IMG/VR virus record: IMGVR_UViG_3300009709_000001
Span: 317,336 to 381,335 of that record
Length of the DNA stretch: 64,000 bases
Direction: 5' to 3' (one strand)
Origin: a virus
Taxonomy: Duplodnaviria; Heunggongvirae; Uroviricota; Caudoviricetes
The notes beneath the pieces are model-generated. The model was not told the DNA's origin. It worked only from the letters and a program-made list of their open reading frames with translations, and ran no database searches. Positions 1 through 28,287 of this stretch are shown here, one piece after another. Every line of letters begins with the position of its first letter. The first letter of the stretch is position 1. A program made the position numbers and the translations under genes.

Positions 1-52
1 CAGTTCGTCGAGATGATCTTCGATACATGTGACAAGGCAATAATAGAAGACT

Positions 53-238
53 TTATCCTTCGTCATCATCGGGCATCCATTCGATCGTTACCTTGATGGT
101 TCCTTTGGAAATTCCCCATTCGTCTGCCGGTACCTTGCTCATAACCGGATTATAGGATTCGCTCAAAGCTTCGCTGACATCCTGTTCGATATCAATGATA
201 CCTTCGCCGCAATAGGAACGTTCAAAGATTTTGATCAT
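53..238 (-). CDS. hypothetical protein (61 aa)
   Basis: ORF track; its ATG (236-238) overlaps the stop of the upstream 59-aa ORF (ATGA). Confidence 0.5.
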   Translation of the reverse strand: MIKIFERSYCGEGIIDIEQDVSEALSESYNPVMSKVPADEWGISKGTIKVTIEWMPDDDEG

Positions 239-414
239 ACTCTAACTCCAAGCAAGTTGTGATCTGCAAGGCGAGGTCTCGTGTTACCTGAATTGAAAAC
301 TCCTCTGGGGCCAAGGATAAATCCTGTCGGAGTTTTACAATAGGAACACACCACCGGTCCCGATCTGGGGAGTGTCAGAGGCGCACCGCAAGGTTTGCAT
401 TCTTTTTGCATCAT
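235..414 (-). CDS. small zinc-ribbon protein (59 aa, below ORF-track cutoff)
   Basis: Hand translation of minus strand: MMQKECKPCGAPLTLPRSGPVVCSYCKTPTGF...; CxxC...CxxC; fills the 239-410 gap; ATGA overlaps with both neighbours. Confidence 0.55.
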   Translation of the reverse strand: MMQKECKPCGAPLTLPRSGPVVCSYCKTPTGFILGPRGVFNSGNTRPRLADHNLLGVRV

Positions 415-671
415 GATAGCAGATACCGGTGGAACTGATCTTGGTCTACTTCGTAGTCGTAGAGCAGCAGGAAATGTAGTTGATCTTCGGCGCGATCGAA
501 CACGAGCACTTTGTGATTATCGATGAGACGAACATTGTATTTTTTCAACACAGCCTCAACATTATCCCATCCATTTAGCCAATGAACGGTCATGAAGGTT
601 CTCCACCACCGTGGACATTCCCCTAATGAGTTGTCGCCAAGATAGAGAGTGTACCCGGGTGTCTTGGTCAT
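411..671 (-). CDS. hypothetical protein (86 aa)
   Basis: ORF 411..704 trimmed to the ATG at 669-671, which overlaps the stop of 668..946 (ATGA). Confidence 0.5.
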   Translation of the reverse strand: MTKTPGYTLYLGDNSLGECPRWWRTFMTVHWLNGWDNVEAVLKKYNVRLIDNHKVLVFDRAEDQLHFLLLYDYEVDQDQFHRYLLS

Positions 672-946
672 TCTTGTTCCTTGTAGGAGCCGTGCACCGG
701 ACACACATCGCCAAAATCTTCAAGGGAAAAATCTTCCCAGAATTTCGGATAATACCGGTCCTCTTCTGCAAGATAATACGTTCCGTATTTCTTAATCAGA
801 TCAAGATCGGTAATTTCTTTGTTGTGGAGCTTTACACAATCGGCAAGGTACTCGTTGTGCTTGGCAATGATCGGTGCTTGGGCCTTGGCCGCGGCCGCGC
901 GGGTCGCATCATCATAGCGGCGAGTTTTACCAAATCGTTTGGGCAT
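668..946 (-). CDS. hypothetical protein (92 aa)
   Basis: ORF track; co-directional array; no motif recognised. Confidence 0.5.
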   Translation of the reverse strand: MPKRFGKTRRYDDATRAAAAKAQAPIIAKHNEYLADCVKLHNKEITDLDLIKKYGTYYLAEEDRYYPKFWEDFSLEDFGDVCPVHGSYKEQE

Positions 947-1637
947 GGTGTTCCCTTAAAACCGAGTTTGACCATTGATAATAGTAACCGACCGAACCTT
1001 TAAGTCCCATTTTCTTTAGTGCTAAATTCGAACTACCTGTTTCGATATACAAACCCAAGAACTCATCTTTTCTCTTATCTAATTCAGCAAATTTTTTGTT
1101 ATCCTTTTTTCTACACTCTTTGCCACAGGTAAATTTTTTTACAGAATGTAGGAATTCGCAACCACAAACCCGACAAGTTTGAAAAGAATTATCAAAATCG
1201 TTAACTCTACCCTTAAGCCATCTCTGATCTAAATAAATCTGAATTTCAGAAATCTTTATCTTTTTATTCTCTCTTAGATTTCTATTATAGATCCAACAAG
1301 TTCCAAATTGGGAATTATTTTCACCACTCGATGATTCTTTAATCGATGTCTTGGCCCACTGATAAATTCTTCCCGTAAATCTTACTTGCTCCGATGACGA
1401 ACATTTTGCCATCATAATAGCTGCCCAGGCCAGTTTAGCATTTAATGGGTTTGCCTTACTCAATAGAAGATGTGCAACATAGTGTTCTTTTGCGGTTAGT
1501 TCTACAAGATTATTTAGATTGTCGGTTCCGCCCATGCACCGCGGAATAATATGATGCCTTTCGCGATACACTTCGTCGGATAAAACTCTGTCTTTTGCTT
1601 TTTCTATGAGATTATTGTATACTTTTTGATAATCCAA
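927..1637 (-). CDS. HNH homing endonuclease (236 aa)
   Basis: HNH core RERHHIIPRCMGGTDNLNNLVELTAKEHYVAHLLL; very AT-rich; first codon is TTG; paralog of 14903, 28365 and 46924 genes. Confidence 0.8.
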   Translation of the reverse strand: MDYQKVYNNLIEKAKDRVLSDEVYRERHHIIPRCMGGTDNLNNLVELTAKEHYVAHLLLSKANPLNAKLAWAAIMMAKCSSSEQVRFTGRIYQWAKTSIKESSSGENNSQFGTCWIYNRNLRENKKIKISEIQIYLDQRWLKGRVNDFDNSFQTCRVCGCEFLHSVKKFTCGKECRKKDNKKFAELDKRKDEFLGLYIETGSSNLALKKMGLKGSVGYYYQWSNSVLREHHAQTIW

Positions 1638-1638
1638 A

Positions 1639-1671
1639 ATACTTCTACTCCTATGATGGAAGTAGAAGTAT
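1639..1671 (-). promoter_or_regulatory. 11-bp perfect hairpin abutting the HNH start codon (RBS-occluding candidate)
   Basis: atacttctact (1639-1649) pairs with agtagaagtat (1661-1671), 11-nt loop; on the mRNA the only AGGAG lies at the loop/3' arm junction and the TTG start is 1 nt after the stem. Confidence 0.5.
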
Positions 1672-1681
1672 TTATCATTTT

Positions 1682-1760
1682 TGGTACCCCGGACAGGATT
1701 CGAACCTGCATTGACTCCATTACACTTCTACGCTTTAGAAGAGCGCTGTGGTACCGAGGT
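1682..1760 (-). tRNA. tRNA-like gene, 76 nt + encoded CCA; possible anticodon UCU (Arg); non-canonical D region
   Basis: Hand fold of minus strand: acceptor ACCTCGG/CCGGGGT (7 bp, one G-U), T arm GCAGG-TTCGAAT-CCTGT, discriminator A, CCA; only 5-bp/7-nt-loop arm is GCGCT-CTTCTAA-AGCGT, displaced 12 nt toward the 5' end; no canonical D arm found. Confidence 0.5.
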
Positions 1761-1768
1761 CTGAATTA

Positions 1769-2107
1769 TTATCTAAAAGCGAGAATAACTTTCTGTTTGA
1801 TTTCCATGAGGCGCATCGGACTCATCTTTGCCCGATAACACACCTCCAGCATTTCGTATTCTCTATCGCGAATTGGGGCGATCTTATGTTCTTTCCCCGA
1901 AAGCTTCAGGAATGTTTCGTACTCGCCATCAAGGCGAATAAGCATTCCGGTTCCCTCGTATACATAGAACATCGCACCACCACGAATTAGGGTCGAATTC
2001 CCTTTTATATCATATTCGGTGATTTCGATGTCTACGTAATCCTTCAACAATTCGTAGCAACCTGCAGGAAGCTCCCGAACTGCCGAAGCACGAGCGAAGT
2101 AAATCAT
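1769..2107 (-). CDS. hypothetical protein (112 aa)
   Basis: ORF 1769..2179 trimmed to ATG 2105-2107, which overlaps the stop of the 37-aa ORF (ATGA); stop lies 8 nt before the tRNA-like 5' end. Confidence 0.5.
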   Translation of the reverse strand: MIYFARASAVRELPAGCYELLKDYVDIEITEYDIKGNSTLIRGGAMFYVYEGTGMLIRLDGEYETFLKLSGKEHKIAPIRDREYEMLEVCYRAKMSPMRLMEIKQKVILAFR

Positions 2108-2217
2108 TGCATGAGCAGCGGGGCGACAGCCATGCACAACAGTTCGGTATTGGCACCGTAAGCAGTACGATACCACCAAACGGCCATGTAGTTGAGTGCA
2201 TCCAGGATTGTGTCCAT
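2104..2217 (-). CDS. small hydrophobic protein (37 aa, below ORF-track cutoff)
   Basis: Hand translation MDTILDALNYMAVWWYRTAYGANTELLCMAVAPLLMQ; AAGGAG 7 nt upstream of ATG; own TTGACA-17-TAAAAT promoter. Confidence 0.55.
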   Translation of the reverse strand: MDTILDALNYMAVWWYRTAYGANTELLCMAVAPLLMQ

Positions 2218-2239
2218 GATCTTGCTCCTTGTTGCCTAC

Positions 2240-2268
2240 ATTTTATTGTAGGTTTAGAAAGTTGTCAA
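2240..2268 (-). promoter_or_regulatory. sigma70-type promoter TTGACA-17-TAAAAT
   Basis: Minus strand cgctcatTTGACAactttctaaacctacaaTAAAATgtagg; -35 overlaps stop of 2265..2609; ~22-nt leader with AAGGAG before the 37-aa ORF. Confidence 0.65.
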
Positions 2269-2609
2269 ATGAGCGCGGCGAGCACATCGGCATCGTCTAC
2301 GAAGTTGCCGTACGAGATATCCTTGATAGCACCGGGATTAGCACCGATGCTGGTAAACCATTCATGCCAGTCCGTCATCACTGCATGGATGTCACCCTGT
2401 TCAACTTCGTAGGTATCCATCTCGATACCCGAAGTGACATCGCTGGTTACCAGCGCACCGCCACCATATTTCGCTTCCATACGGCCGACCTGTTCGATCA
2501 TATCATCCACCACAATGGCAGAAGGATTGTCGAGCTTGAAGCCAAAGATGTACTCAGTGCCATCATCAAGATCGGCATCGTAGAAAGAGAAAGAGAAAGG
2601 AATTGTCAT
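2265..2609 (-). CDS. hypothetical acidic protein (114 aa)
   Basis: ORF track; 1-nt overlap with upstream gene. Confidence 0.55.
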   Translation of the reverse strand: MTIPFSFSFYDADLDDGTEYIFGFKLDNPSAIVVDDMIEQVGRMEAKYGGGALVTSDVTSGIEMDTYEVEQGDIHAVMTDWHEWFTSIGANPGAIKDISYGNFVDDADVLAALI

Positions 2610-2872
2610 TATTTTACTCCAAAAATTCGTTCAAAGATAGGGCGTACACGGCGATGATATTTTTCTTCGCGCTGCCGGAGATTCAACCATTTCCTATTGT
2701 CCCACACCGGATCGTCGCCGTGTTTCTCTTCTTGGCGCCTGAACCAGAAGTGTGCCTGATATTTTGACCACCACATGATGGCGCCGTCGCAGGAATTCAC
2801 CGTTTTACTGATCCCGCCGGGGCCGGAAAGTGTAACAGCAACCTTCGGTTTAACTTTGATTTTGTCGCGCAT
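2609..2872 (-). CDS. hypothetical protein (87 aa)
   Basis: ORF track; 1-nt overlaps on both sides. Confidence 0.55.
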   Translation of the reverse strand: MRDKIKVKPKVAVTLSGPGGISKTVNSCDGAIMWWSKYQAHFWFRRQEEKHGDDPVWDNRKWLNLRQREEKYHRRVRPIFERIFGVK

Positions 2873-3075
2873 TACAACACCATCAGGACGAAGGCGAGAA
2901 TGAGTTGAAGAAGTAGGATTACAATCTTCATAAATCCATAGCCAGCCGCGATGGAAATGATCTGCAATTTGGTGCTGAGTTGCGAAGCACCAGTTTCACT
3001 CATGATGTAACGGCCGGCATAGAAGCCGCCAACAACCATAAGTACCAGAGAAAAGAGGGCAAATGCAAGTTCCAT
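2872..3075 (-). CDS. small two-TM membrane protein (67 aa)
   Basis: ORF 2872..3123 trimmed to MELAFALFSLVLMVVGGFY...; ATG 3073-3075 follows the stop of the 56-aa ORF by 1 nt; two hydrophobic helices. Confidence 0.55.
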   Translation of the reverse strand: MELAFALFSLVLMVVGGFYAGRYIMSETGASQLSTKLQIISIAAGYGFMKIVILLLQLILAFVLMVL

Positions 3076-3076
3076 A

Positions 3077-3247
3077 TTAATCTTTCGGGATGATGTAAAC
3101 GGCATGGCCGCTATAGTTGCCAATCATCCAATCCTCCATCACCTCATTGTGGGAGAACTGGTATGCTGTGGCACCAAAGGTAGCCACAACATTCAATTTC
3201 TCTTCAGTCTGAATATAGACTTTGATATCATCTAAGCGCATTCGCAT
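3077..3247 (-). CDS. hypothetical protein (56 aa, below ORF-track cutoff)
   Basis: Hand translation MRMRLDDIKVYIQTEEKLNVVATFGATAYQFSHNEVMEDWMIGNYSGHAVYIIPKD; fills the 3124-3227 gap. Confidence 0.45.
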   Translation of the reverse strand: MRMRLDDIKVYIQTEEKLNVVATFGATAYQFSHNEVMEDWMIGNYSGHAVYIIPKD

Positions 3248-3629
3248 CAATCAACTCTTTCAGTTTCTTATGTTGTTGTTGATTCCAGCCCATCGTTGCT
3301 TCACTCTGCACAAATTTCTCTTCAATCCAGACGTTAGGAATTTCCCATAATGACCGATAATTACCGTCGGTAAATCCGTAACGGTAATCTTGTGGCATGC
3401 GACGAACATTCAACCAGCCACAGTGACCAGTGATTGAGGTATACCAGACATGAGCTTTGTCGTATCTCGGTACAGACATGACCACATGTCCACGTTGCCA
3501 ACCAGTAGTGGTTGTATCACATTGCACCTTAAGCATGCAATCAACAGAAGCAACAATCGGACTGGCCGGCAAGTACCATGCCCCGGGGACAATGTCCCAT
3601 AGCAGAAGAGACTTGTGTTTCTTGCTCAC
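3228..3629 (-). CDS. hypothetical protein (133 aa)
   Basis: ORF track; 4-nt overlap with upstream gene. Confidence 0.55.
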   Translation of the reverse strand: MSKKHKSLLLWDIVPGAWYLPASPIVASVDCMLKVQCDTTTTGWQRGHVVMSVPRYDKAHVWYTSITGHCGWLNVRRMPQDYRYGFTDGNYRSLWEIPNVWIEEKFVQSEATMGWNQQQHKKLKELIDANALR

Positions 3630-4252
3630 AGCTTCTCCAAAAGCCGGCCCAGCAATGCATCCATTTCTTCTTCGGTGTAGCGAAGGTATGCATTGGGCGT
3701 CGGAATTGTGTCGCCGAAATCCGTCTTAGTGAAGATGCGCGAACGTTCCTTCACTGTGGGAAACTCGAACACCATGAACGATGTGAGTTGCGTGGGATCG
3801 TTTTCCACGCTGTGAATTTCGGTGTGGCCCTGGAAGTGCATGTCACCGGGACCCAACACTTGCGTATCGTGTACGCGCAAGCCCCTCTTCGTAACCAGTT
3901 CCAGTTTGATCTTCTTTTCCTTGTTGTCCGGATGCAGTGCCGACGTGAGTGCGTAGATGTTGTAGTCATCCCGCTCGTTATCGAGCTTGTAGACAGTGTT
4001 CGTGATGGTGCCGTGGAGCACCAGAATCTGGCTGTCATACAGGTGGTTGTGGATGTTGACTGCGCGCGTCTGCAGTTCGTCTTGCGGCTCCACGATATAA
4101 AGCCGAATAGTGTGCTCCGGAGTGAACTCGAAGCACACGTAATTCAGACCGGGAAAATGGAAATTCTTGATGGACAGATCACAGATCCGTTTCAGATTGT
4201 GTTTGCGCTGGAGTGCAATCCATTGCTTCCAAAAAATCGTGGACTGGTTCAT
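3626..4252 (-). CDS. cupin-fold metalloprotein-like (208 aa)
   Basis: Two cupin-type motifs: VNIHNHLYDSQILVLHG and GPGDMHFQGHTEIHSVEN; start moved to ATG 4252 (CAGGAG upstream) because the promoter -10 lies inside the longer ORF. Confidence 0.5.
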   Translation of the reverse strand: MNQSTIFWKQWIALQRKHNLKRICDLSIKNFHFPGLNYVCFEFTPEHTIRLYIVEPQDELQTRAVNIHNHLYDSQILVLHGTITNTVYKLDNERDDYNIYALTSALHPDNKEKKIKLELVTKRGLRVHDTQVLGPGDMHFQGHTEIHSVENDPTQLTSFMVFEFPTVKERSRIFTKTDFGDTIPTPNAYLRYTEEEMDALLGRLLEKL

Positions 4253-4282
4253 CACAAACTCCTGAACTAATAGGTTGCATGC

Positions 4283-4311
4283 ATTGTAACGCATGCAAGA
4301 CGGTGTGTCAA
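4283..4311 (-). promoter_or_regulatory. sigma70-type promoter TTGACA-17-TACAAT
   Basis: Minus strand gcacTAATTGACAcaccgtcttgcatgcgtTACAATgcatgc; directly follows the stop of 4312..4731. Confidence 0.7.
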
Positions 4312-4731
4312 TTAGTGCAAGATAGGCGGTTTGCCTAGCCGAGTGGATTCTGGAAAAAGGTTATCAACCGCGTCTTTCAAATCCAAATCATCAAGTGTAA
4401 TATCGCTCATTTCATCAAGAAAGTCTTTCTCGATATTCTCCAGCATTTCAGTCTGCTGGCGTTCTTGGCGAAGAATCATTCGAAGAATATTCTTGGCATG
4501 ATCTTCGGTTAAATCCTGAACGAAGTAAGGAACTGCATCCGCGGTGATCCAAATCTCATCTCTATATTCCTTGCCATCGCCATGGGCGATATAGGTCTTA
4601 TGTTCTTGCCATTCGACCGTATATTCTTCGGTTTTGAGATTCTTTCGAATATCGATGAACCATTTATCTTCGGCGATCAATGGAGCAACGAATGCCTTCA
4701 TTTCTTCATAGACAAGGAATGTCTTTTTCAT
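4312..4731 (-). CDS. hypothetical protein (139 aa)
   Basis: ORF track; 1-nt overlap with upstream gene. Confidence 0.55.
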   Translation of the reverse strand: MKKTFLVYEEMKAFVAPLIAEDKWFIDIRKNLKTEEYTVEWQEHKTYIAHGDGKEYRDEIWITADAVPYFVQDLTEDHAKNILRMILRQERQQTEMLENIEKDFLDEMSDITLDDLDLKDAVDNLFPESTRLGKPPILH

Positions 4732-5093
4732 TATAGTTCCTTATAATTCTTTTCAATCCAGTTTGCAATCTTCTTGAAGCTTACACCGCTATCATTTGCA
4801 TCGACAAGAGATTCATACACATTGCCGGAAATAGTAAGATCATCGGCGACTGAACCTTCACCGTTGTCCATCATAGCCCAGTCCCTAACTTCAAGCGGAA
4901 GAATTGCACTCTCTCCGAGATAAAAACGAGGTTGGGATTGTTCCCTGGCAATTTTCGGATGTGCCTGTGCATGTAGATTACACAGAACACCTAGACAACA
5001 GAACCCTTCGTCATTTCGAAGAGCACCTTCGGTCTTTTTGTATTCACCACTACGAAGTGCTTTCACCCACTTTTCTGCAATCTTCTTTTTCAT
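4731..5093 (-). CDS. hypothetical protein (120 aa), KWVKALRSGEY...CCLGVLC type
   Basis: ORF track; N-terminal pattern KWVKALRSGEYKKTEGALRNDEGFCCLGVLCNL recalls a widespread phage protein of unknown function (from memory). Confidence 0.55.
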   Translation of the reverse strand: MKKKIAEKWVKALRSGEYKKTEGALRNDEGFCCLGVLCNLHAQAHPKIAREQSQPRFYLGESAILPLEVRDWAMMDNGEGSVADDLTISGNVYESLVDANDSGVSFKKIANWIEKNYKEL

Positions 5094-5394
5094 TATTGTT
5101 TTCCTCTGTGTAACCTAGTGCTTTCAACATATTATCGCACCATTGTTTCGATTCTTCTAGTGTTTCGCCCTCTAGGCCATAGCACCAATCGAGCCATTCA
5201 TCCCATTTATATTCGACGTATTTTCCACCGTCTTCAAAGTATCCGACATCCTCACGATGATATGCAGCACGGATTCGAACTCGAGGTGTCTTCTCGATAA
5301 GAGCGACACGAGTTTCTACACGGTCAGGATCGGCACCAGAAATAGTCCGAACTACGAAACCATCACATTGAATCCATGGGCTGATTTTTTGCAT
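5050..5394 (-). CDS. hypothetical protein (114 aa)
   Basis: ORF track; only ATG available is 5 nt downstream of a consensus -10 (leaderless layout). Confidence 0.55.
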   Translation of the reverse strand: MQKISPWIQCDGFVVRTISGADPDRVETRVALIEKTPRVRIRAAYHREDVGYFEDGGKYVEYKWDEWLDWCYGLEGETLEESKQWCDNMLKALGYTEENNNEKEDCRKVGESTS

Positions 5395-5399
5395 ACTTA

Positions 5400-5428
5400 A
5401 TTATATGTGAGTTCTCTGGAAAAGTCAA
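5400..5428 (-). promoter_or_regulatory. sigma70-type promoter TTGACT-17-TATAAT, ATG 5 nt after -10
   Basis: Minus strand aagTTGACTtttccagagaactcacaTATAATtaagtATGCAAAAA. Confidence 0.7.
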
Positions 5429-5600
5429 CTTGATTAAGAATAGTGTTTCGTCAATCAAGTTGTTGCCTAAAGGCAACACTTCTTCGAAAATGAAGAATTG
5501 GACGGCGTTTGACTCAAAAGTGTTGGTTCTGAGCAACAAAACGCTCTAATGTTTCAATGATTTTCGTTGTGATCTGATCAGATTTCGAATGAGTTTCGTG

Positions 5601-6176
5601 TCATTCTTCGTCATCAAATTTCGGCTTTGTAGTTCGGAAGAGGACCTCATATTCCATGTCTGATATCTGGCGCATCCTCTCATGTTTTTCGCATAAGACC
5701 TTGGTGCCGGGCATGTTTACCATTTTTCCGGGTGAACCACAATCTTCACAGATTCTTTTCGACATACTCTGCGCCATAAGCAGATAATAACCATGTTCGT
5801 CGGTGCCGTTTAACATACCGATTCTTAATGTACCGAACTTTTGACGAACGCTAGTAATGGTCGGAAGTTCAGCGCGGAATTCCTCTAATCTCTTTTCTTG
5901 TCCGATAATTAACTCTCGAAGGTTACCTGAATCCTTCACATCAGTCTTTTCGCATTCTTCTCGGTAATATTCAAGTCGATTTTCGACCTGCTGTACCTTA
6001 TGATAAATTGTTTCGAAAAAGGTTTCTAGAATACCTGCCCATCCCGGGCCAACTGCAAAATGATCTATATCTGATTTCTCGAATAGATAGGGCCATTGAA
6101 AGACAAAGGGTTCTATTTCTAGATCTGGAATATTATCAGAGCTCATATTGGGTAGATTTGGTAGACGATTAGGCAC
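5601..6176 (-). CDS. hypothetical protein (191 aa) with C-terminal Cys cluster
   Basis: ORF track (first codon GTG at 6176; alternative ATG at 6146); C-terminal CEDCGSPG...LCEKH. Confidence 0.55.
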   Translation of the reverse strand: MPNRLPNLPNMSSDNIPDLEIEPFVFQWPYLFEKSDIDHFAVGPGWAGILETFFETIYHKVQQVENRLEYYREECEKTDVKDSGNLRELIIGQEKRLEEFRAELPTITSVRQKFGTLRIGMLNGTDEHGYYLLMAQSMSKRICEDCGSPGKMVNMPGTKVLCEKHERMRQISDMEYEVLFRTTKPKFDDEE

Positions 6177-6272
6177 ATAGGCACGTTTTCTGTGCGGGAT
6201 TTTCCCGCAGGATTCCTGTGCAAGATTCCAAATCCTGCGTCCAAATCTGATCTGGAAATCTAGGTCAGAAAG

Positions 6273-6734
6273 TTACGCTAGAACTGGACATAGGATACTA
6301 TAGACCGGTGTCTTCTTTCCGTAGTTATAGAAGTTGTCTTTTGTATTCCCGAATTCTTTTGAATGAATTGGTGCATCTTTATTACTCGGGAACTTCGGGC
6401 CATTGAAATACATCTCATAAACTGCAGACATGATGCCAGTCTTACAGTTCATTACAACACCCTTCATCATGCTCGTGACCATAATTGTCTTACCATCGAC
6501 GTTAATGGTTGTAGGCTTGTCGAGTGTGATTAAAAAGTCGCCGCCCGAAATGACTGTATGGTCAACATAGGTTGCGATTAGTGTTGAAGAATCGAAATAG
6601 AGATGTTCACCATTCTTAGAAACAAGACCGTAAACTTCTTTCCATTCCGGTTCAGGAAAAATGAGACCGGCTGTAGCATAAATGCCGACAACAGCGAGAC
6701 CAAGGCAACATAAGATCTTATTCAGTTTTGACAT
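6273..6734 (-). CDS. secreted or membrane-anchored protein (153 aa)
   Basis: N-terminal hydrophobic segment ILCCLGLAVVGIYATAGLIF. Confidence 0.55.
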   Translation of the reverse strand: MSKLNKILCCLGLAVVGIYATAGLIFPEPEWKEVYGLVSKNGEHLYFDSSTLIATYVDHTVISGGDFLITLDKPTTINVDGKTIMVTSMMKGVVMNCKTGIMSAVYEMYFNGPKFPSNKDAPIHSKEFGNTKDNFYNYGKKTPVYSILCPVLA

Positions 6735-7059
6735 ACTTCTTTCTCACTCCATCGGCAATTTGAGCAACCGTTATATTTACATCGATACGCTCAATGACAA
6801 TACGATTGCAGGCCAACTTCATCAGCAATGCTTCACCCGGATCCATCTTGGCATGATAGATGGTAACCAAGCCTTCGTTGCTTCTATTTGCTATGTTTTC
6901 GATGCCGACCTTATATGCATCTTGCACCGTTTGTATGCGATATGGAATGTTTCTTTGTGTAAGGTAAACACCTACATCAAAGCCGTCTGTCCATGGCTCC
7001 AGAATTTTGTAATTCAGAAGGGCCACAGGCTCCGGAAAAAGTTCTTCACGTTCAGCCAT
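6718..7059 (-). CDS. hypothetical protein (113 aa)
   Basis: ORF track; co-directional array. Confidence 0.5.
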   Translation of the reverse strand: MAEREELFPEPVALLNYKILEPWTDGFDVGVYLTQRNIPYRIQTVQDAYKVGIENIANRSNEGLVTIYHAKMDPGEALLMKLACNRIVIERIDVNITVAQIADGVRKKYVKTE

Positions 7060-7355
7060 GGTCTATTTTTTAGAATTGTTACGCCATTGAACAGCATCTT
7101 GAGTGCTGTCATATCTTCATCATCACCAAGAATGACGAAGGTGTAAACCACATATTCGTATGTCCAATTTTCGGGAACTGTGGATCCGTAGGTTACAAAC
7201 CCTACCGCACGCTCAACCTTCTTTGGAATATAATCGAATGGGATCAGCTCTTGCGAGTAATCCGCACTTACACTATAGGCAATACCTTTGCCCTTAAGGT
7301 AAGTGACCATTTCTGTATCATCGCCACTATCAAGTGCAAAGGTAATCCATTTCAT
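7014..7355 (-). CDS. hypothetical protein (113 aa)
   Basis: ORF track; contains ILGDDEDMTALKMLF, a weak match to the EEDA-helix motif. Confidence 0.5.
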   Translation of the reverse strand: MKWITFALDSGDDTEMVTYLKGKGIAYSVSADYSQELIPFDYIPKKVERAVGFVTYGSTVPENWTYEYVVYTFVILGDDEDMTALKMLFNGVTILKNRPWLNVKNFFRSLWPF

Positions 7356-7570
7356 AGTTCTCTAATCTTTCCGGCTGTACAAGCCAATCTTAAGAAAAGC
7401 AATTCGTATTTGGTTAGTTCAACTTCATACTCGATAAACATAGTGAGTATCAAATCTTTTACGGTGCCACGCGAATTGGGTTTTTCTCGTTTCACACCGA
7501 GAAGAGCCAAAGTGGACTTTAGTTCTTCGTGGTGTGTATCTTCAATAATGATGTGGTATCTTTTCTTCAT
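7352..7570 (-). CDS. hypothetical protein (72 aa)
   Basis: ORF track; 4-nt overlap downstream, 1-nt upstream. Confidence 0.5.
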   Translation of the reverse strand: MKKRYHIIIEDTHHEELKSTLALLGVKREKPNSRGTVKDLILTMFIEYEVELTKYELLFLRLACTAGKIREL

Positions 7571-7890
7571 CAGGGTGTGGGTGGGAGGCCATCGACCTTA
7601 ACAGTGATCTTGACCTTGTGTCGTTCGTCTTGTGCTGCTTCTTCGGCAAGCTCTTCTTCTGTACGGGCACGGCGAATCTTCAGATGCTTCATGCCCAGAC
7701 GGAAAGTCAGTGCTGCCTCGGGGTCCATCTCGATAACAGATTCGAGATCGGAATAGCGAGGATCATCGGGATTAACAACCTTGTGCTTTTCGACAACGTT
7801 GTATTCTTCTTCGTTCAGGCGTTGGAGCACTTCATCGAATTTACGCTTATCGCCCTGTTCGTAAGTGAAGGTGTAGTTAGTCCAAGTCAT
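7570..7890 (-). CDS. hypothetical protein (106 aa)
   Basis: ORF track; 4-nt overlap with upstream gene. Confidence 0.55.
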   Translation of the reverse strand: MTWTNYTFTYEQGDKRKFDEVLQRLNEEEYNVVEKHKVVNPDDPRYSDLESVIEMDPEAALTFRLGMKHLKIRRARTEEELAEEAAQDERHKVKITVKVDGLPPTP

Positions 7891-8126
7891 TGTGTTTCCT
7901 TTAGGTTTCCGATAGTCCTAGTAAAATTCATGCAACCATTCAATGGGAAGATTATTTTCATTGCTATTGCATCTTCGCTATCCATTTGCACTGAATACAG
8001 ATAATTTCCTGCACTCATATCAACCGACAGTCGACTATATTCGAGATTGTGGCTTGTTAAAAACTGTTCAAATTCATCACCACGTGGAATTTGAATTTTA
8101 ATGAAGTACCTCGATTTCAAGCTCAT
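7887..8126 (-). CDS. hypothetical protein (79 aa)
   Basis: ORF track; QMDSEDAIAMKIIF is a weak EEDA-helix match. Confidence 0.5.
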   Translation of the reverse strand: MSLKSRYFIKIQIPRGDEFEQFLTSHNLEYSRLSVDMSAGNYLYSVQMDSEDAIAMKIIFPLNGCMNFTRTIGNLKETQ

Positions 8127-18256: not shown

Positions 18257-19456
18257 TTACCTATTGTTTTGGGGCGAATGGTTGTCCGGCTCGTACCAAG
18301 CAGTCATACCAAACGGTGCGACCAGCCGTCGTTGCGTATCGCCGTGGATGAGGAACAGAGTGTCGCAGTAATTCTCGTCACCCCAGCTACCGCAAGGATA
18401 GCCGTCAGTCATCACGATGAAGCGTTCCGGCATCACATCATTTTCCTTCATGTAATCCCAGTTCACTGTGAAGTCGGTACCGCCACCACCCTTCAGATCG
18501 TAGGTATCGATGTCATCGATATTTTCCGGCGTAAAGATCTGCGGGTTGTAAACGCGAGTGTCGAATGTCCAAACGGTAAGCTTGAAGTCCATGAACTGTT
18601 CCATGATGCCCTTGACTTCGCCGAGCAAGTCACGCAGCATGTCTTCAGACATAGAACCCGATGCGTCAATTGCCACAGCGGCCTCGACACGTACATCTTC
18701 CTTCGTACCCGGCAGGTAGATGCCGCTCGACTGAGACTTACGCGAGCAGCGACTCCAGGTGAAGTCATTGCGAATCATCGACTGAATCTTCATGTTCAGG
18801 ATTTCACGCCAATCCATCTGCGGATTGGTCAAATCCTTCAGCATGCGCTTCACACCTGCAGGCACATTGCCAGCGCCAGCTGCCTTCGAAGCTTGCATCA
18901 CGGCAGCACGGATCTCGTCGCCCAGGATACGGCGTTCTTCCTCTGTCATCGGCTCACCCTTGCCATCGCCTGGCTCCAAGTGGATGTCGAATTCGGGGAA
19001 CTTCTGGCTCGGGTCCTTCATTAGGGCTTCGTACACTTCTTCAGCGAACATACCCTTGAACTTGGGATCGAAGCAGGCAGTCACACCAGATGTCTTGGGG
19101 TCGGGGATCTTACCGACACTGTTCTCGTGGAGTTCCCAGTTGATGACGTAGTCGGCAGCAGCGTTCCAAGCCTTCGGCTTACGCGAACCACGACGACCCA
19201 TGTGGTCATAGACGCAGTGTTCCACTTCGTGCGCAACCAAGAAAATCGTTTCTTGTTTGTTCAACTTCAGAATGAAGTTGCGATTGAAGTAGAAACTGCG
19301 ACCATCGGTGGCAGCAGTGGGGCACCAGCCATCGGGATCGTCGGTAGCGTCCTTCAGAATCAAGCGAGTGGCCAACGTGCCCCAGAACGGCTGTTGCAGA
19401 AGAAGAGAGATGCGTGCTCGCGTCAGCTGTTCAAATGCTTTTTCCTGATCGGTCAT
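18257..19456 (-). CDS. VWA-domain protein with N-terminal HExxH metallopeptidase-like region (MoxR partner, CobT-like)
   Basis: AHEVEHCVYDH (HExxH) and MIDAS AIDASGSMS (DxSxS); GC-rich; own promoter and hairpin. Confidence 0.8.
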   Translation of the reverse strand: MTDQEKAFEQLTRARISLLLQQPFWGTLATRLILKDATDDPDGWCPTAATDGRSFYFNRNFILKLNKQETIFLVAHEVEHCVYDHMGRRGSRKPKAWNAAADYVINWELHENSVGKIPDPKTSGVTACFDPKFKGMFAEEVYEALMKDPSQKFPEFDIHLEPGDGKGEPMTEEERRILGDEIRAAVMQASKAAGAGNVPAGVKRMLKDLTNPQMDWREILNMKIQSMIRNDFTWSRCSRKSQSSGIYLPGTKEDVRVEAAVAIDASGSMSEDMLRDLLGEVKGIMEQFMDFKLTVWTFDTRVYNPQIFTPENIDDIDTYDLKGGGGTDFTVNWDYMKENDVMPERFIVMTDGYPCGSWGDENYCDTLFLIHGDTQRRLVAPFGMTAWYEPDNHSPQNNR

Positions 19457-21483: not shown

Positions 21484-22710
21484 TCAGTCCTCGAGGATGA
21501 ACTTGCCGTACTTGTCGTGGAACGACTTGAACTGCTTCAGCTCACGGTGGTTGATCGGCAACGAATAGTCCCGCAGCGCGGTCTTGGCTCCCAGAACGAT
21601 CATCTCAGTCTGGAAGTTGTCCATCATGAACTTGAAGAAGTGGTCCACGCACTCGTGCCATTGCTTCATGTCGAAGCCGTCGCCATCGCCCTTGCCGTTG
21701 TTCTGCTTGGCCTTCAGCGACCATTCCTGCAGCGTGTAGCAGAGGCTGATGGTCAGCGAGTACATGGCAGACAGGTCCTTGACGTTCAGCGTCTTTTCCT
21801 TGCCCATCAGCACGTCTTCCGACTTCGGCATCTTCGCCGCAACGCGACGGTGTGCAGTGAACTCGGTAGCGTTGCCTTCACCGACGGTACCTGCCACGAG
21901 GGAGGTGTTCATCGATTCCGGCAGGCTGTCGCTGATCAGCTGGGACACGAAAGTCCAGGAACGCGGCGTAGCGAACGCCTTGTCCGGCGACTTCGGATCG
22001 AAGTCGAACAGCTTCTGCTTGTGGTGCGACAGGAAGCCCACAACGTCCGGGTGAACCTTGGCGCCGATCGCCCACTTCTGCCAGTCTTCGAAGTTCGAAG
22101 TCATCTCGATGTGAACCAGACGGTTTGCCAGCGGGCTGGGCATACGGTAGGTCACGCCCTTGTCGCTGTCGCGGTTACCAGCGCACAGCATGGACACGCC
22201 ATCGGGCAGGTGGTATTCGCCGACACGACGGTTCAGGATGAGCTGGTAAGCAGCAGCCTGCACGCTCGGAGGAGCAGCGTTGATTTCGTCCAGGAACAGG
22301 ATCGCGTTGCTCATGTCGTAAGCGGCGCGGATCGACAGGGCGTATTCGCGAGCAGTTTCAGCTTCTTCGCTGACGTCCTTCTCGTCGAACTTGGCCGCAG
22401 CGGCCTCTGCCTTCTCGACGTCCTTCTTCTTGATGGACTTCGGCAGGTCGGCAGGATGTGCCCACTTCATGGTCTTGGTCTCGACGTCGAAGTAGGGGAT
22501 GCCCTTGATGTCAGTCGGTTCGAGCAGCAGCAAGCGCATGTCGATCACCTTGCGACCGGCCTTTGCGCCGATTTCAGCGATCAGTTCCGATTTGCCAATG
22601 CCCGGGGGACCCCAGATCATTGCGGGGCGGCGCACTTCCATGCAGCGCTCCAGAAGAGTCTTGACGTCCTTCGGACGTTCTTGACGGGAAGTAGAATGAT
22701 TTGCAGCCAT
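21484..22710 (-). CDS. MoxR-type AAA+ ATPase (CobS-like, 408 aa)
   Basis: Walker A GPPGIGKS, Walker B ILFLDEINAA; GC-rich; own promoter and terminator. Confidence 0.85.
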   Translation of the reverse strand: MAANHSTSRQERPKDVKTLLERCMEVRRPAMIWGPPGIGKSELIAEIGAKAGRKVIDMRLLLLEPTDIKGIPYFDVETKTMKWAHPADLPKSIKKKDVEKAEAAAAKFDEKDVSEEAETAREYALSIRAAYDMSNAILFLDEINAAPPSVQAAAYQLILNRRVGEYHLPDGVSMLCAGNRDSDKGVTYRMPSPLANRLVHIEMTSNFEDWQKWAIGAKVHPDVVGFLSHHKQKLFDFDPKSPDKAFATPRSWTFVSQLISDSLPESMNTSLVAGTVGEGNATEFTAHRRVAAKMPKSEDVLMGKEKTLNVKDLSAMYSLTISLCYTLQEWSLKAKQNNGKGDGDGFDMKQWHECVDHFFKFMMDNFQTEMIVLGAKTALRDYSLPINHRELKQFKSFHDKYGKFILED

Positions 22711-25583: not shown

Positions 25584-25613
25584 ATTATAGGGCCACCAGG
25601 GCCCTATAGTCAA
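25584..25613 (-). promoter_or_regulatory. sigma70-type promoter TTGACT-18-TATAAT whose spacer is a 9-bp hairpin
   Basis: Minus strand cagTTGACTatagggccctggtggcccTATAATgcatttg; tatagggcc/ggccctata stem spans the spacer and -10. Confidence 0.65.
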
Positions 25614-25641
25614 CTGAGTTTTACGTCAATTGGAACTGGTT

Positions 25642-26820: not shown

Positions 26821-26838
26821 GTGTAGCTCCTTGGGGGT

Positions 26839-26865
26839 GAAAACTGGGGCCCCGAAGGGCCCCAG
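26839..26865 (-). terminator. rho-independent terminator
   Basis: Minus strand ctggggccc-ttcg-gggccccag followed by ttttc, 3 nt after the stop of 26869..27966. Confidence 0.8.
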
Positions 26866-26868
26866 GGG

Positions 26869-27966: not shown

Positions 27967-28021
27967 CGCTTCTTTCTTGGTTGCGGGATAAATCCCTGGT
28001 TAAATTTGTTTAACAGTCTCT

Positions 28022-28050
28022 ATTTTATGCAGACGCGTGCGGTGACGCAA
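28022..28050 (-). promoter_or_regulatory. sigma70-type promoter TTGCGT-17-TAAAAT
   Basis: Minus strand cagTTGCGTcaccgcacgcgtctgcaTAAAATagag. Confidence 0.55.
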
Positions 28051-28056
28051 CTGATT

Positions 28057-28287
28057 TTATAGGTTGTAGTTTCTGATCCAGGAAGCCGTTTCTTCGTTGT
28101 CGGTATACAACATAATTTTCGAATGCGGATCGTAACCCTGCTTTTCGATAATATATGTTTTCGAATCAACGGAATCCTTCAGAGAGCGGAAGAAATCCGC
28201 CATTTCCAAAAGATTCTCCATATTGATCTGGCCAAAGTTGAAACCAAACTTGGCCTTCCGTGCTTTCACTTCAACAAAGACACTCAT
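28057..28287 (-). CDS. hypothetical protein (76 aa)
   Basis: ORF track; YTDNEETASWIRNYNL is a weak EEDA-helix match. Confidence 0.5.
   Translation of the reverse strand: MSVFVEVKARKAKFGFNFGQINMENLLEMADFFRSLKDSVDSKTYIIEKQGYDPHSKIMLYTDNEETASWIRNYNL

What the first reader, a model, noticed from the sequence alone, without database searches (positions are those of the whole stretch)
1682..1760. tRNA-like gene with canonical acceptor, T arm and CCA but a scrambled core
Seen: the minus strand gives a 76-nt RNA plus an encoded CCA. It has a clean 7-bp acceptor stem (ACCUCGG/CCGGGGU) and a textbook T arm (GCAGG-UUCGAAU-CCUGU). The only 5-bp/7-nt-loop arm (GCGCU-CUUCUAA-AGCGU, U33 and A37 correct, anticodon UCU) sits 12 nt too close to the 5' end. 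No 4-bp D arm with GG can be drawn. A D-loop-like GUGUAAUGG string lies after the anticodon arm rather than before it. The gene starts 8 nt after a protein-gene stop, and 44 nt downstream lies an HNH gene. Inference: it may be a D-arm-less or rearranged tRNA-Arg(UCU), a decoy or repair substrate (RtcB is encoded nearby), or a pseudogene damaged by endonuclease activity.
Basis: partly seen in the sequence, partly recalled or inferred. Interest (0 to 1): 0.5.

Follow-up and report, generated by a model that had tools for sequence, protein, structure and literature searches.

The report
Phage tRNA-Arg with rewired core
This is a real, conserved phage gene for an arginine tRNA whose D-arm pieces lie on the wrong side of the anticodon arm, one of at least 49 such rewired tRNAs that standard gene finders miss and that I could not find described in the literature.

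Summary
Window 1760-1682 (minus strand) encodes a 76-nt tRNA-like RNA plus CCA. It has normal acceptor, anticodon (UCU) and T arms but no D arm in the usual place.

It is not scrambled or decayed. I found 49 distinct relatives in phage contigs. Cultured hosts of such phages include E. coli (phi92, 121Q, Bas93), Pseudomonas (PAK_P2), Klebsiella (Sugarland) and Streptomyces (Francob).

All share one order. The 3 nt after U8-A9-Y pair with 3 nt that follow the anticodon arm, with strong covariation. That strand runs straight into a canonical D-loop string (U13 A14 R15 .. G18 G19 N20) and then the T arm.

So the D-stem strands are swapped and the D loop is moved, but every nucleotide of the tertiary core is kept. 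Position 20 is A in all Arg-anticodon members and U or C in the Ile/CAU members, matching the synthetase identity rules. Positions 15 and 48 covary.

The genes sit in phage tRNA arrays, mostly fill missing anticodons, and often adjoin homing-endonuclease genes.

Best reading: a working tRNA-Arg(UCU) with non-cloverleaf wiring. Expression and charging are untested.

The parts
1754..1760 (-). Acceptor stem, 5' strand (ACCUCGG, tRNA nt 1-7)
   Evidence: All 7 pairs show changes on both sides in the family.
1752..1753 (-). U8 A9 connector
   Evidence: U8 and A9 are invariant in alignment A2. 49/49 members start this connector with UA.
1748..1751 (-). C + CAC: strand a', spatial equivalent of canonical nt 22-25. 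CAC pairs with GUG at 1723-1725.
   Evidence: Helix of columns 12-14 with 37-39: 100% paired in A2 and 96.6% in A4, with pair types GC/AU/UA/CG. RNAalifold predicts it de novo.
1747..1747 (-). A, equivalent of nt 26 (junction to the anticodon stem)
   Evidence: parse.
1730..1746 (-). Anticodon arm GCGCU-CUUCUAA-AGCGU. The anticodon UCU is at 1737-1739.
   Evidence: All 5 stem pairs covary.
1726..1729 (-). Linker 1 (AGAA), taking the place of variable-loop nt 44-45
   Evidence: Its length is 3-8 nt in the family, and it varies inversely with linker 2.
1722..1725 (-). GUG + U: strand b', equivalent of canonical nt 10-13
   Evidence: Covaries with a'.
1716..1721 (-). Relocated D loop AAUGGA = A14 A15 U16 G18 G19 A20. 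A20 is the main bacterial ArgRS determinant.
   Evidence: U13 A14 is present in 49/49. GG is invariant. Position 20 is A in 44/44 Arg members and U or C in 5/5 others. Canonical Arg tRNAs in the same loci carry the same string. Identity rule from PMC9976931.
1710..1715 (-). Linker 2 (GUCAAU), ending in the U48 equivalent
   Evidence: Positions 15/48 covary: A-U 43, G-C 2, G-G 2.
1693..1709 (-). T arm GCAGG-UUCGAAU-CCUGU
   Evidence: The two loop-proximal G-C pairs (including G53-C61) are invariant in 49/49.
1685..1692 (-). Acceptor stem 3' strand CCGGGGU plus discriminator A73
1682..1684 (-). Encoded CCA
   Evidence: CCA is encoded in 22/49 family members.
1639..1671 (-). Strong hairpin followed by UUUU: a terminator-like or processing signal after the tRNA
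   Evidence: Folding of 1630-1681 gives -18.2 kcal/mol, z = -5.1, with 0/200 shuffles as stable. The simple terminator scan did not call it because it has few G-C pairs.
927..1637 (-). HNH-type homing-endonuclease-like gene, 44 nt downstream of the CCA
   Evidence: Weak HNH_5 hit. NUMOD3-like segment shared with the L029 endonuclease. Endonuclease genes adjoin rewired tRNAs in at least 11 other loci.
1769..2179 (-). Upstream ORF of unknown function. Its stop lies 8 nt before the tRNA, so co-transcription is probable.
   Evidence: No Pfam hit and no phage tblastn hit.

Best explanation
The locus encodes a working elongator tRNA-Arg(UCU) of a phage-borne structural class in which the tRNA core is wired in a non-cloverleaf order.

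Gene order: acceptor 5' strand, U8 A9, [equivalent of nt 22-25], N26, anticodon arm, short linker, [equivalent of nt 10-13 plus D-loop nt 14-20], short linker ending in U48, T arm, acceptor 3' strand, A73, CCA.

Shown here: the 3-bp helix formed by the two D-stem strands extends the anticodon stem. The D-loop string, the nucleotides that normally form U8-A14, R15-Y48 and G18G19-T loop, and the isotype-specific nucleotide 20 are all conserved.

Inferred:
- Each strand keeps the polarity and position of its canonical counterpart.
- The three new junctions (9->22, 43/44->10, 20->48) join nucleotides that are neighbours in the canonical L-shape, as the established triples 9-[12-23], 45-[10-25], 46-[13-22] and 21-[8-14] indicate. 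The RNA should therefore fold into a normal L-shape.
- It is probably transcribed with the upstream ORF, cut by RNase P at nt 1, and trimmed to its encoded CCA.
- It is charged by the host ArgRS through A20, C35, U36 and A73, carried by EF-Tu, and used to read AGA (and perhaps AGG). AGA makes up 26% of the Arg codons in this phage window.

The adjacent homing-endonuclease gene probably explains how near-identical copies reached unrelated phages.
For: Family and structure
- The core (nt 7-69) is 87% identical to unannotated sites in Pseudomonas phages PAK_P2 and phiPsa397 and in Limnohabitans phage DC31, and 78% identical to the 121Q site.
- Pattern scans and a covariance model gave 49 distinct members. 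Four more cultured phages were confirmed.
- Pair counts: 96.7% of cells are paired against 67.6% in shuffles, and 33.6-46.4% when the partners are slid. 17 of 20 pairs change on both sides. The result holds on 49 sequences.
- The a'/b' helix shows GC21 AU14 UA8 CG6 at one pair and CG21 GC13 AU6 UG2 UA1 at the next. RNAalifold predicts this helix on an unfitted MAFFT alignment.
- DC31's single-sequence minimum-free-energy fold is exactly the proposed structure.

Tertiary and identity nucleotides
- U13 A14 is present in 49/49 and GG is invariant.
- Nt 20 is A in 44/44 Arg-anticodon members (UCU, UCG, ACG, CCG, CCU) and U or C in 5/5 Ile/CAU members.
- Among the 14 members found by the model alone, so not forced by my search patterns, the split is 9/9 against 0/5 (p about 5e-4 by hand calculation).
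- A20 is the main bacterial ArgRS determinant. U20 and A73 are Ile determinants (PMC9976931). All 5 non-Arg members have A73.
- Positions 15/48 are A-U in 43 members and G-C or G-G in the 4 members with G15.
- Canonical Arg and Ile tRNAs in the same loci have the same D-loop strings.

Genomic context
- The rewired genes lie inside phage tRNA arrays and mostly complement the canonical anticodons. L036 has 33 canonical tRNAs, with Arg only as ACG, plus a rewired UCU. L012 has 26 tRNAs plus a rewired UCU. L019 has canonical GCG and CCU plus rewired ACG and CCG. The phi92 array has no other annotated tRNA-Arg.
- AGA accounts for 264 of 1012 Arg codons in the window.
- CCA is encoded here, and a strong hairpin follows the gene.
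Against: - There are no expression, processing, modification or aminoacylation data. The 3D argument is inference from canonical tRNA geometry and has not been modelled.
- For this window's own sequence, the nearest-neighbour model prefers a different rod-like fold (-24.2 against -14.2 kcal/mol). Here the linker AGAAG pairs with the anticodon-loop CUUCU. The z-score of the minimum-free-energy fold is only -1.8.
- The D-like helix is only 3 bp plus a Y-U mismatch. 5 of 49 members have a non-standard pair next to the anticodon stem.
- Two contigs (L021, L027) carry both a canonical and a rewired UCU gene, so the rewired form is not always needed.
- The predominance of Arg is partly built in, because my search patterns required GGAGU.
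Confidence: 0.7

Rival explanations
1. A tRNA mimic that is not used in translation. It could be a decoy that absorbs a host tRNA-targeting nuclease or other tRNA-binding defence protein, or a dedicated substrate for phage RNA-repair enzymes (RtcB or RNA ligase).
For: The anticodon loop CUUCUAA is canonical and would make good bait. The window encodes RtcB. In L035 an RNA ligase gene (PF09414, 1e-33) lies 42 nt downstream of a rewired tRNA. The unusual body might prevent the RNA from entering translation.
Against: A decoy has no need for synthetase identity nucleotides that switch with the anticodon (A20 for Arg; U20 and A73 for Ile). It also has no need for eight different anticodons that fill gaps in tRNA arrays, or for a discriminator base plus CCA. 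RtcB is 34 kb away, and most member loci show no repair gene nearby.
Confidence: 0.12
2. The rearranged gene owes its form mainly to selfish DNA. A homing endonuclease beside it cuts canonical tRNA-Arg genes in competing phages, and the rewired allele persists because it lacks the cleavage site. The RNA may be only marginally functional.
For: Homing-endonuclease-like genes (several HNH families, DUF559+NUMOD3, GIY-YIG) lie within 150 nt in the window, PAK_P2, phiPsa397, DC31, L020, L027 (two), L029, L036, L038, Sugarland and Bas93. The PAK_P2 and L020 endonucleases are 58% identical and hold the same position relative to the tRNA. The tRNA core is 87% identical between unrelated phages, while the flanks do not match.
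Against: Phage tRNA arrays are generally rich in such endonuclease genes, and I ran no control for enrichment. Many members have no endonuclease neighbour. Strong purifying selection on RNA structure and identity nucleotides indicates selection on the RNA itself, so this reading explains spread better than function.
Confidence: 0.08
3. The transcript is rearranged at the RNA level by cutting and religation, for example with RtcB, to give a canonical cloverleaf tRNA. This would parallel the permuted tRNA genes of red algae.
For: RtcB is encoded in the window. Permuted tRNA genes that are repaired by processing are known in eukaryotes (own knowledge).
Against: Restoring the canonical order needs an internal transposition: two excisions and three ligations. 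I saw no processing motif. The a'/b' helix and the 15/48 covariation are selected in the arrangement as encoded. The linker lengths suit the encoded topology.
Confidence: 0.03
4. A decaying tRNA pseudogene or gene fragment, with the apparent arms being leftovers.
For: ARAGORN does not call it. It is the only tRNA-like gene in 64 kb and sits beside an endonuclease gene.
Against: There are 49 distinct sequences across phages of at least four bacterial phyla, with compensatory changes in every helix and invariant functional loops. The acceptor stem is intact and CCA is present.
Confidence: 0.02

Closest known systems
Canonical bacterial and phage tRNA-Arg(UCU), including the canonical Arg tRNAs in the same phage arrays
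   Same: 7-bp acceptor stem, 5/7/5 anticodon arm with loop CUUCUAA, T arm UUCGAAU, the D-loop string A14 A15 Y16 G18 G19 A20, U8, Y48, and A/G73 plus CCA.
   Different: The order of segments along the chain differs. The 3' D-stem strand comes straight after nt 9. The 5' D-stem strand and D loop come after the anticodon arm. There is no hairpin-type D arm and no nt 21. The variable loop is split into two linkers.
Metazoan mitochondrial D-armless tRNA-Ser(AGY/AGN), anticodon GCU or UCU (PMC7609411, PMC4013460)
   Same: No D hairpin between nt 9 and the anticodon arm, an extended anticodon helix, and in some animals the same UCU anticodon.
   Different: The mitochondrial tRNAs lose the D loop and the D/T-loop contact and need adapted partners. 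Here the D-loop nucleotides, GG, the T loop and the synthetase determinant at position 20 are all kept, and the context is bacterial translation.
Circularly permuted tRNA genes of Cyanidioschyzon merolae (own knowledge)
   Same: The gene order departs from the order in a standard tRNA.
   Different: Those genes are whole-molecule circular permutations that processing turns back into a standard cloverleaf. Here the acceptor strands are in normal order and the permutation is internal, so it most likely persists in the mature RNA.
Class II tRNAs with a long variable arm, such as the tRNA-Leu(UAA) in L017 whose variable arm reads CCGUAAUGGAGU
   Same: Extra nucleotides lie between the anticodon and T arms, and the string GUAAUGGAGU occurs there. 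This may hint at the evolutionary origin.
   Different: A class II variable arm is a self-contained hairpin beside a normal D arm. Here the extra segment pairs with nt 11-13 and there is no D hairpin.
Viral tRNA-like structures (TYMV type) and engineered D-armless 'mini HisT' (PMC11551756)
   Same: Both show that a tRNA-like shape or function can be reached with non-standard connectivity. Mini HisT shows that E. coli EF-Tu, the ribosome and a synthetase tolerate loss of the D arm.
   Different: Viral tRNA-like structures are 3' ends of RNA genomes with pseudoknotted acceptor stems. Mini HisT is artificial and lacks D-loop contacts. The present family is natural, free-standing, and keeps the full tertiary nucleotide set.

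Membership tests
tRNA (Rfam RF00005, cloverleaf) | 7-bp acceptor stem with discriminator base and CCA end | tested here: met
   All 7 pairs covary in the family.
tRNA (Rfam RF00005, cloverleaf) | 5-bp anticodon stem and 7-nt loop with U33 and purine 37 | tested here: met
   GCGCU-CUUCUAA-AGCGU. The stem covaries.
tRNA (Rfam RF00005, cloverleaf) | 5-bp T stem and UUCRANY T loop with invariant G53-C61 | tested here: met
   The two loop-proximal G-C pairs are invariant in 49/49.
tRNA (Rfam RF00005, cloverleaf) | D arm: a 3-4-bp stem closing a 7-11-nt loop, placed between nt 9 and nt 26 | tested here: not met
   The Rfam alignment deletes 15 D-arm positions. ARAGORN finds nothing at default or relaxed settings. 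Only 5 nt separate A9 from the anticodon stem.
tRNA (Rfam RF00005, cloverleaf) | Score at or above the family gathering threshold | tested here: met
   35.2 bits against 29. Relatives score 29.8-44 bits or are missed, while canonical neighbours score 41-73.5 bits, mostly 45 or more.
tRNA (Rfam RF00005, cloverleaf) | Nucleotides of the tertiary core: U8, A14, R15/Y48, G18 G19, T-loop partners | tested here: met
   All are present, though in a relocated segment. U13 A14 is 49/49, GG is invariant, and 15/48 covary. Whether the contacts actually form cannot be tested here.
tRNA (Rfam RF00005, cloverleaf) | Aminoacylation and decoding on the ribosome | not testable with these tools
   Needs infected-cell RNA and biochemistry.
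Bacterial tRNA-Arg (ArgRS identity set: A20, C35, U/G36, A/G73; PMC9976931) | A20 in the D loop | tested here: met
   GGA at 1718-1716. A follows GG in 44/44 Arg-anticodon members and in 0/5 others.
Bacterial tRNA-Arg (ArgRS identity set: A20, C35, U/G36, A/G73; PMC9976931) | C35, U36 and discriminator A/G73 | tested here: met
   Anticodon UCU and A73.
D-armless mitochondrial-type tRNA | No D helix and no D-loop/T-loop interaction nucleotides | tested here: not met
   A covarying 3-bp D-like helix and a complete D-loop string are present.
Class II tRNA | Self-contained variable stem-loop in addition to a normal D arm | tested here: not met
   The segment after the anticodon arm covaries with nt 11-13, not with itself, and there is no D hairpin.
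Circularly permuted tRNA gene | The 3' half precedes the 5' half, so that the acceptor strands are adjacent in the gene | tested here: not met
   The acceptor 5' and 3' strands are at the two ends, as in a normal gene.
tRNA pseudogene or fragment | No selection for structure: broken helices and no compensatory change | tested here: not met
   96.9% of cells are paired, and 316 cells have changes on both sides against 92 in shuffles.

The most novel reading that the evidence does not exclude
Phages carry a natural topological isomer of tRNA. It has the same tertiary core and the same partners (host ArgRS or IleRS, EF-Tu, ribosome), but the chain passes through the core in a different order. These would be the first non-cloverleaf tRNAs known to work in bacterial translation. 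So far the form is seen only for class Ia synthetase substrates (Arg, Ile, CAU). It may spread with homing endonucleases because the rearranged gene no longer carries the target site present in canonical tRNA genes.
Probability: 0.5. Interest if true: 0.88.

Novelty: new variant of a known kind. Interest (0 to 1): 0.8.

Why it matters
[quoted passage not shown] A 2020 review of non-canonical tRNAs lists no phage case (PMC7609411). A conserved family that keeps the tertiary core but changes the chain connectivity would show that the cloverleaf order itself is not required. The requirement would be the 3D arrangement.
- **A natural experiment.** The family could test which backbone connections synthetases, RNase P, EF-Tu, modification enzymes and the ribosome actually need.
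- **Annotation.** ARAGORN misses these genes entirely. Rfam scores them near or below threshold. GenBank records leave them blank, label them 'tRNA-OTHER' or 'tRNA-Undet', or in 121Q call one tRNA-Leu(taa). Phage tRNA repertoires, and especially AGA/AGG decoding capacity, are therefore under-counted. Phi92, for example, would otherwise have no tRNA-Arg.
- **Applications and biology.** Such scaffolds could serve as orthogonal tRNAs in synthetic biology. They also raise the question of whether rewiring helps phage tRNAs escape host tRNA-targeting defences or homing-endonuclease attack.

Tried and rejected
- **Near-identical phage DNA:** megablast of window 1-8000 found nothing. tblastn of the upstream ORF found nothing. 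The phage is known only as a distant relative of the RaK2, Atu_ph07 and Phosso jumbo phages (PolB 40-43% identity).
- **Single-sequence folding:** the window RNA's minimum-free-energy fold is a window-specific alternative and is not conserved. I do not use it as evidence for the structure.
- **MAFFT of all 29 first sequences (A1):** it misaligned the subtype with the 8-nt linker. I replaced it with a covariance-model alignment (A4).
- **ARAGORN variants:** default, -ps, -ps80, -mt and -mtmam gave no credible cloverleaf or D-replacement model.
- **In-silico 'un-permutation':** I moved the b'+D-loop segment back to lie after nt 9. ARAGORN then called 41/49 as tRNAs with the right anticodon. But a control with that segment shuffled was still called in 35/49, so the test mostly measures spacing. 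I discard it as evidence.
- **Simple terminator scan:** it did not flag the hairpin after the gene. Folding shows the hairpin is strong.
- **Literature:** seven full-text searches found no description of this architecture. An eighth attempt failed on syntax. Absence from this library is not proof of novelty.
- **Cellular genomes:** a scan of 185,579 species genomes gave 5 hits. Three were chance matches and two were MAG contigs with phage-like tRNA arrays.
- **Considered and rejected:** class II tRNA, mitochondrial-type D-armless tRNA, pseudogene, and a YrlA-like RNA (a Ro-like gene lies near the Francob copy, but the element has its own acceptor stem, anticodon and CCA).
Full report
**1. The observation**

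- The minus strand from 1760 to 1685 gives a 76-nt RNA, followed by an encoded CCA (1684-1682).
- It has a 7-bp acceptor stem, a textbook T arm, and a 5/7/5 anticodon arm with loop CUUCUAA. That arm begins at nt 15 instead of nt 27.
- The upstream ORF stops 8 nt before nt 1.
- An ORF with an HNH motif starts 44 nt after the CCA.
- RtcB is present, but 34 kb away.

Rfam's tRNA model matches the site at 35.2 bits (threshold 29; E 0.0011 for the window). It does so only by deleting the D arm and inserting 17 nt before the T arm. ARAGORN finds no tRNA in the whole window. With relaxed or mitochondrial settings it produces only implausible folds.

**2. It is a member of a conserved family**

A sensitive blastn of the element against cultured-phage genomes matched nt 7-69, which includes the odd core.
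- It is 87% identical to unannotated sites in Pseudomonas phages (PAK_P2, phiPsa397 and relatives) and Limnohabitans phage DC31.
- It is 78% identical to a site in E. coli jumbo phage 121Q that the record calls tRNA-Leu(taa).

Pattern scans of IMG/VR and a covariance model built from 18 aligned members recovered 49 distinct sequences. These score 44-97 bits. Ordinary tRNAs in the same loci score 32 bits or less, and no complete match falls between 33 and 44 bits.

The same model confirmed copies in E. coli phages phi92 and Bas93, Klebsiella phage Sugarland and Streptomyces phage Francob. A blastn with one subtype alone hit 158 GenBank phage records. Most are unannotated there, and a few are labelled 'tRNA-OTHER' or 'tRNA-Undet'.

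A scan of one genome for each of 185,579 bacterial and archaeal species found only two true copies. Both are on MAG contigs with phage-like tRNA arrays. The family is essentially a phage feature.

**3. The structure**

All members share one order:
- acceptor 5' strand
- U8 A9 (sometimes one more nucleotide)
- a pyrimidine
- three nucleotides, called a' here
- one nucleotide
- the anticodon arm
- a linker of 3-8 nt
- three nucleotides, called b'
- U A R (N0-3) G G N
- a second linker, mostly 4-9 nt (up to 21), ending almost always in U
- the T arm
- acceptor 3' strand and discriminator base

Strands a' and b' are complementary and covary. The combinations seen are CAC/GUG (window), CGU/GCG, CGG/CCG, CUC/GAG, CGC/GCG, CAG/CUG, CGA/UCG, CCG/CGG, CCC/GGG, and CUU/AAG in Bas93.

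On the unfitted MAFFT alignment:
- 96.7% of pair cells are standard pairs, against 67.6% in column shuffles and 33.6-46.4% when partners are slid.
- 17 of 20 pairs change on both sides.
- The a'/b' helix is 100% paired.

On the 49-sequence model alignment the figures are 96.9% overall and 96.6% for a'/b'. The pair types there are GC21 AU14 UA8 CG6 at one pair and CG21 GC13 AU6 UG2 UA1 at the next. RNAalifold predicts the a'/b' helix on its own. DC31's single-sequence minimum-free-energy fold is exactly this structure.

**4. What the arrangement means**

The string that follows b' reads U-A-A-Y-(U)-G-G-A. It is the same as nt 13-20 of the canonical tRNA-Arg genes in the same phage arrays, whose D arms read N4-AAYUGGAUA-N4. 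So b'+U corresponds to canonical nt 10-13, followed by A14, R15, G18, G19 and N20. Strand a', with the pyrimidine before it, corresponds to nt 22-25, followed by nt 26 and the anticodon arm.

In other words, the segment 10-20 has been moved from before the anticodon arm to the middle of the variable loop.

Each strand keeps the 5'-3' direction of its canonical counterpart. The a'/b' helix stacks on the anticodon stem exactly where the D stem does.

From the established tRNA tertiary structure (triples 9-[12-23], 45-[10-25], 46-[13-22], 21-[8-14]; pair 15-48), the three new backbone junctions (9 to 22, 43/44 to 10, 20 to 48) connect nucleotides that are already neighbours. A normal L-shape is therefore sterically plausible. 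This step is inference; I could not model it.

The two linkers compensate in length. The common combinations are 4+6, 8+4 and 3+9 nt.

**5. Evidence that the relocated segment acts as a real D loop**

- U13 A14 is present in 49/49 members and GG is invariant.
- Position 15 and the last nucleotide before the T stem behave like the 15-48 pair. A-U occurs in 43 members. The four members with G15 have C or G there, never U (Fisher p = 7e-5). By hand calculation on the 14 members found by the model alone, p is about 0.005.
- The nucleotide after GG is A in all 44 members with an arginine anticodon (UCU 29, UCG 8, ACG 5, CCG 1, CCU 1). It is U or C in the five members with GAU, UAU or CAU.
- A20 is the principal determinant for bacterial ArgRS, with C35, U/G36 and A/G73. 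U20 and A73 are isoleucine determinants (PMC9976931). All five non-Arg members have A73.
- My search patterns forced GGAGU, so the fair test is again the 14 model-only members: 9/9 Arg with A and 0/5 others, p about 5e-4 by hand calculation.
- The reverse direction is also informative. The anticodon-free pattern returned rewired genes with arginine anticodons only.

**6. Genomic context**

ARAGORN detects none of the rewired genes. Rfam gives them 29.8-44 bits or misses them, for example 121Q, both L019 copies, three of four in L027, and two of five in L031. Most canonical neighbours score 45-73 bits.

The rewired genes lie inside tRNA arrays, typically next to canonical arginine tRNAs, and mostly supply anticodons the array otherwise lacks.
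- L036: 33 canonical tRNAs, with Arg only as ACG, plus a rewired UCU.
- L012: 26 canonical tRNAs, with ACG, plus a rewired UCU.
- L019: canonical GCG and CCU, plus rewired ACG and CCG, as four adjacent genes.
- phi92: no other annotated tRNA-Arg in the array.
- Only L021 and L027 carry both a canonical and a rewired UCU gene.

In the present window this is the only tRNA-like gene in 64 kb. AGA is the second most used arginine codon: 264 of 1012, or 14.6 per thousand codons. A strong hairpin (-18.2 kcal/mol, z -5.1) followed by UUUU closes the gene.

The phage is a jumbo phage distantly related to RaK2, Atu_ph07 and Phosso (PolB 40-43% identity).

**7. The endonuclease neighbour**

Homing-endonuclease-like genes lie within 150 nt of rewired tRNAs in many loci:
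- the window
- PAK_P2, phiPsa397, and DC31 with L016
- L020, L027 (two), L029 (GIY-YIG/NUMOD3), L036 (DUF559+NUMOD3), L038 (HNH, 3e-9)
- Sugarland and Bas93 (HNH_3)

The PAK_P2 and L020 enzymes are 58% identical and occupy the same position. The DC31 enzyme is 40% identical but lies on the other side of the tRNA.

This fits the known habit of such genes to populate phage tRNA regions. It offers a route by which an 87%-identical tRNA core reached unrelated phages. I did not test whether the association exceeds that for canonical tRNA genes.

**8. Weaknesses**

- Nothing here shows that the RNA is made, processed, modified or charged.
- For the window's own sequence, the nearest-neighbour model prefers a rod-like alternative. 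There the linker AGAAG pairs with CUUCU of the anticodon loop (-24.2 against -14.2 kcal/mol). That pairing is specific to this copy.
- The D-like helix is short, and in 5 of 49 members one of its pairs is non-standard.
- The un-permutation test failed its control and is discarded.
- The restriction to Arg, Ile and CAU may reflect how I searched.

**9. Comparison with what is known, and novelty**

The RNA works like a tRNA-Arg, and on most criteria it is one. It fails the defining cloverleaf feature of a D hairpin between nt 9 and nt 26.
- It is not a mitochondrial-type D-armless tRNA, because the D helix and D loop are retained.
- It is not a class II tRNA, because there is no self-contained variable hairpin.
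- It is not a circularly permuted gene, because the acceptor strands are in normal order.
- It is not a pseudogene, because it covaries.

Seven full-text searches found no description of such a tRNA. A 2024 paper states that all known bacterial tRNAs are cloverleaves, and a 2020 review of non-canonical tRNAs has no phage example.

I therefore rate it a new variant of a known kind. It is a tRNA with a new chain topology.
- Confidence that the conserved rewired structure is real: about 0.95.
- Confidence that it is a functional arginine tRNA: about 0.7.

Noticed in passing
window 1726-1741: In this copy only, the linker plus b' (AGAAG) is complementary to CUUCU of the anticodon loop. This gives a competing hairpin that the energy model prefers by about 10 kcal/mol. 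Close relatives have AGCAG and lack it.
   Followed up: partly
window 35619-36884 (-): Full-length RtcB RNA ligase (Pfam 6e-129), 34 kb from the tRNA.
   Followed up: partly
window 25600-28100: A GC-rich island (0.61 against about 0.42 elsewhere) with long ORFs open on both strands at 25.6-26.8 kb and 26.9-28.0 kb. It lies within a region (about 11-32 kb) where long ORFs appear on the + strand of an otherwise minus-strand genome.
   Followed up: no
window 18260-19456 (-) and 21487-22710 (-): A DUF2201 metallopeptidase/VWA-like protein and an AAA ATPase lie about 2 kb apart. This pairing resembles MoxR/VWA modules.
   Followed up: no
L003 1495-1576 (Escherichia phage 121Q, KM507819.1 73585-73666): The GenBank record annotates the rewired tRNA-Arg(UCU) as tRNA-Leu(taa). 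Other records call homologues 'tRNA-OTHER' or 'tRNA-Undet', or leave them blank.
   Followed up: yes
L035 1075-2094: An RNA ligase gene (PF09414, 1e-33, with an OB-fold domain) starts 42 nt downstream of a rewired tRNA-Arg(UCU).
   Followed up: no
L017 690-767; L021 1848-1919; L027 11904-11979: ARAGORN calls tRNAs with stop-codon anticodons (tca, cta) in three contigs that also carry rewired tRNAs. This suggests phages that recode stop codons.
   Followed up: no
L024 1057-1125; L006 4431-4496: Two other tRNA-like sequences have good acceptor and T arms but cores that fit neither the cloverleaf nor the rewired model (32-33 bits with R1).
   Followed up: no
L010 6424-6703; L005 10374-10454: A tmRNA gene called by ARAGORN, and a short Rfam tmRNA match, both inside phage tRNA arrays.
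   Followed up: no
L048 37-1653 (Streptomyces phage Francob): A Ro-like RNA-binding protein gene lies 1.3 kb upstream of the tRNA array that holds the rewired tRNA.
   Followed up: no
L031 6221-7260: Five rewired tRNAs (GAU, UAU, CAU, UCG, UCU) sit within about 1 kb, interleaved with canonical Asn, Arg(ACG) and Arg(CCU) genes. This is the densest cluster seen, and one of three loci with non-Arg members.
   Followed up: partly
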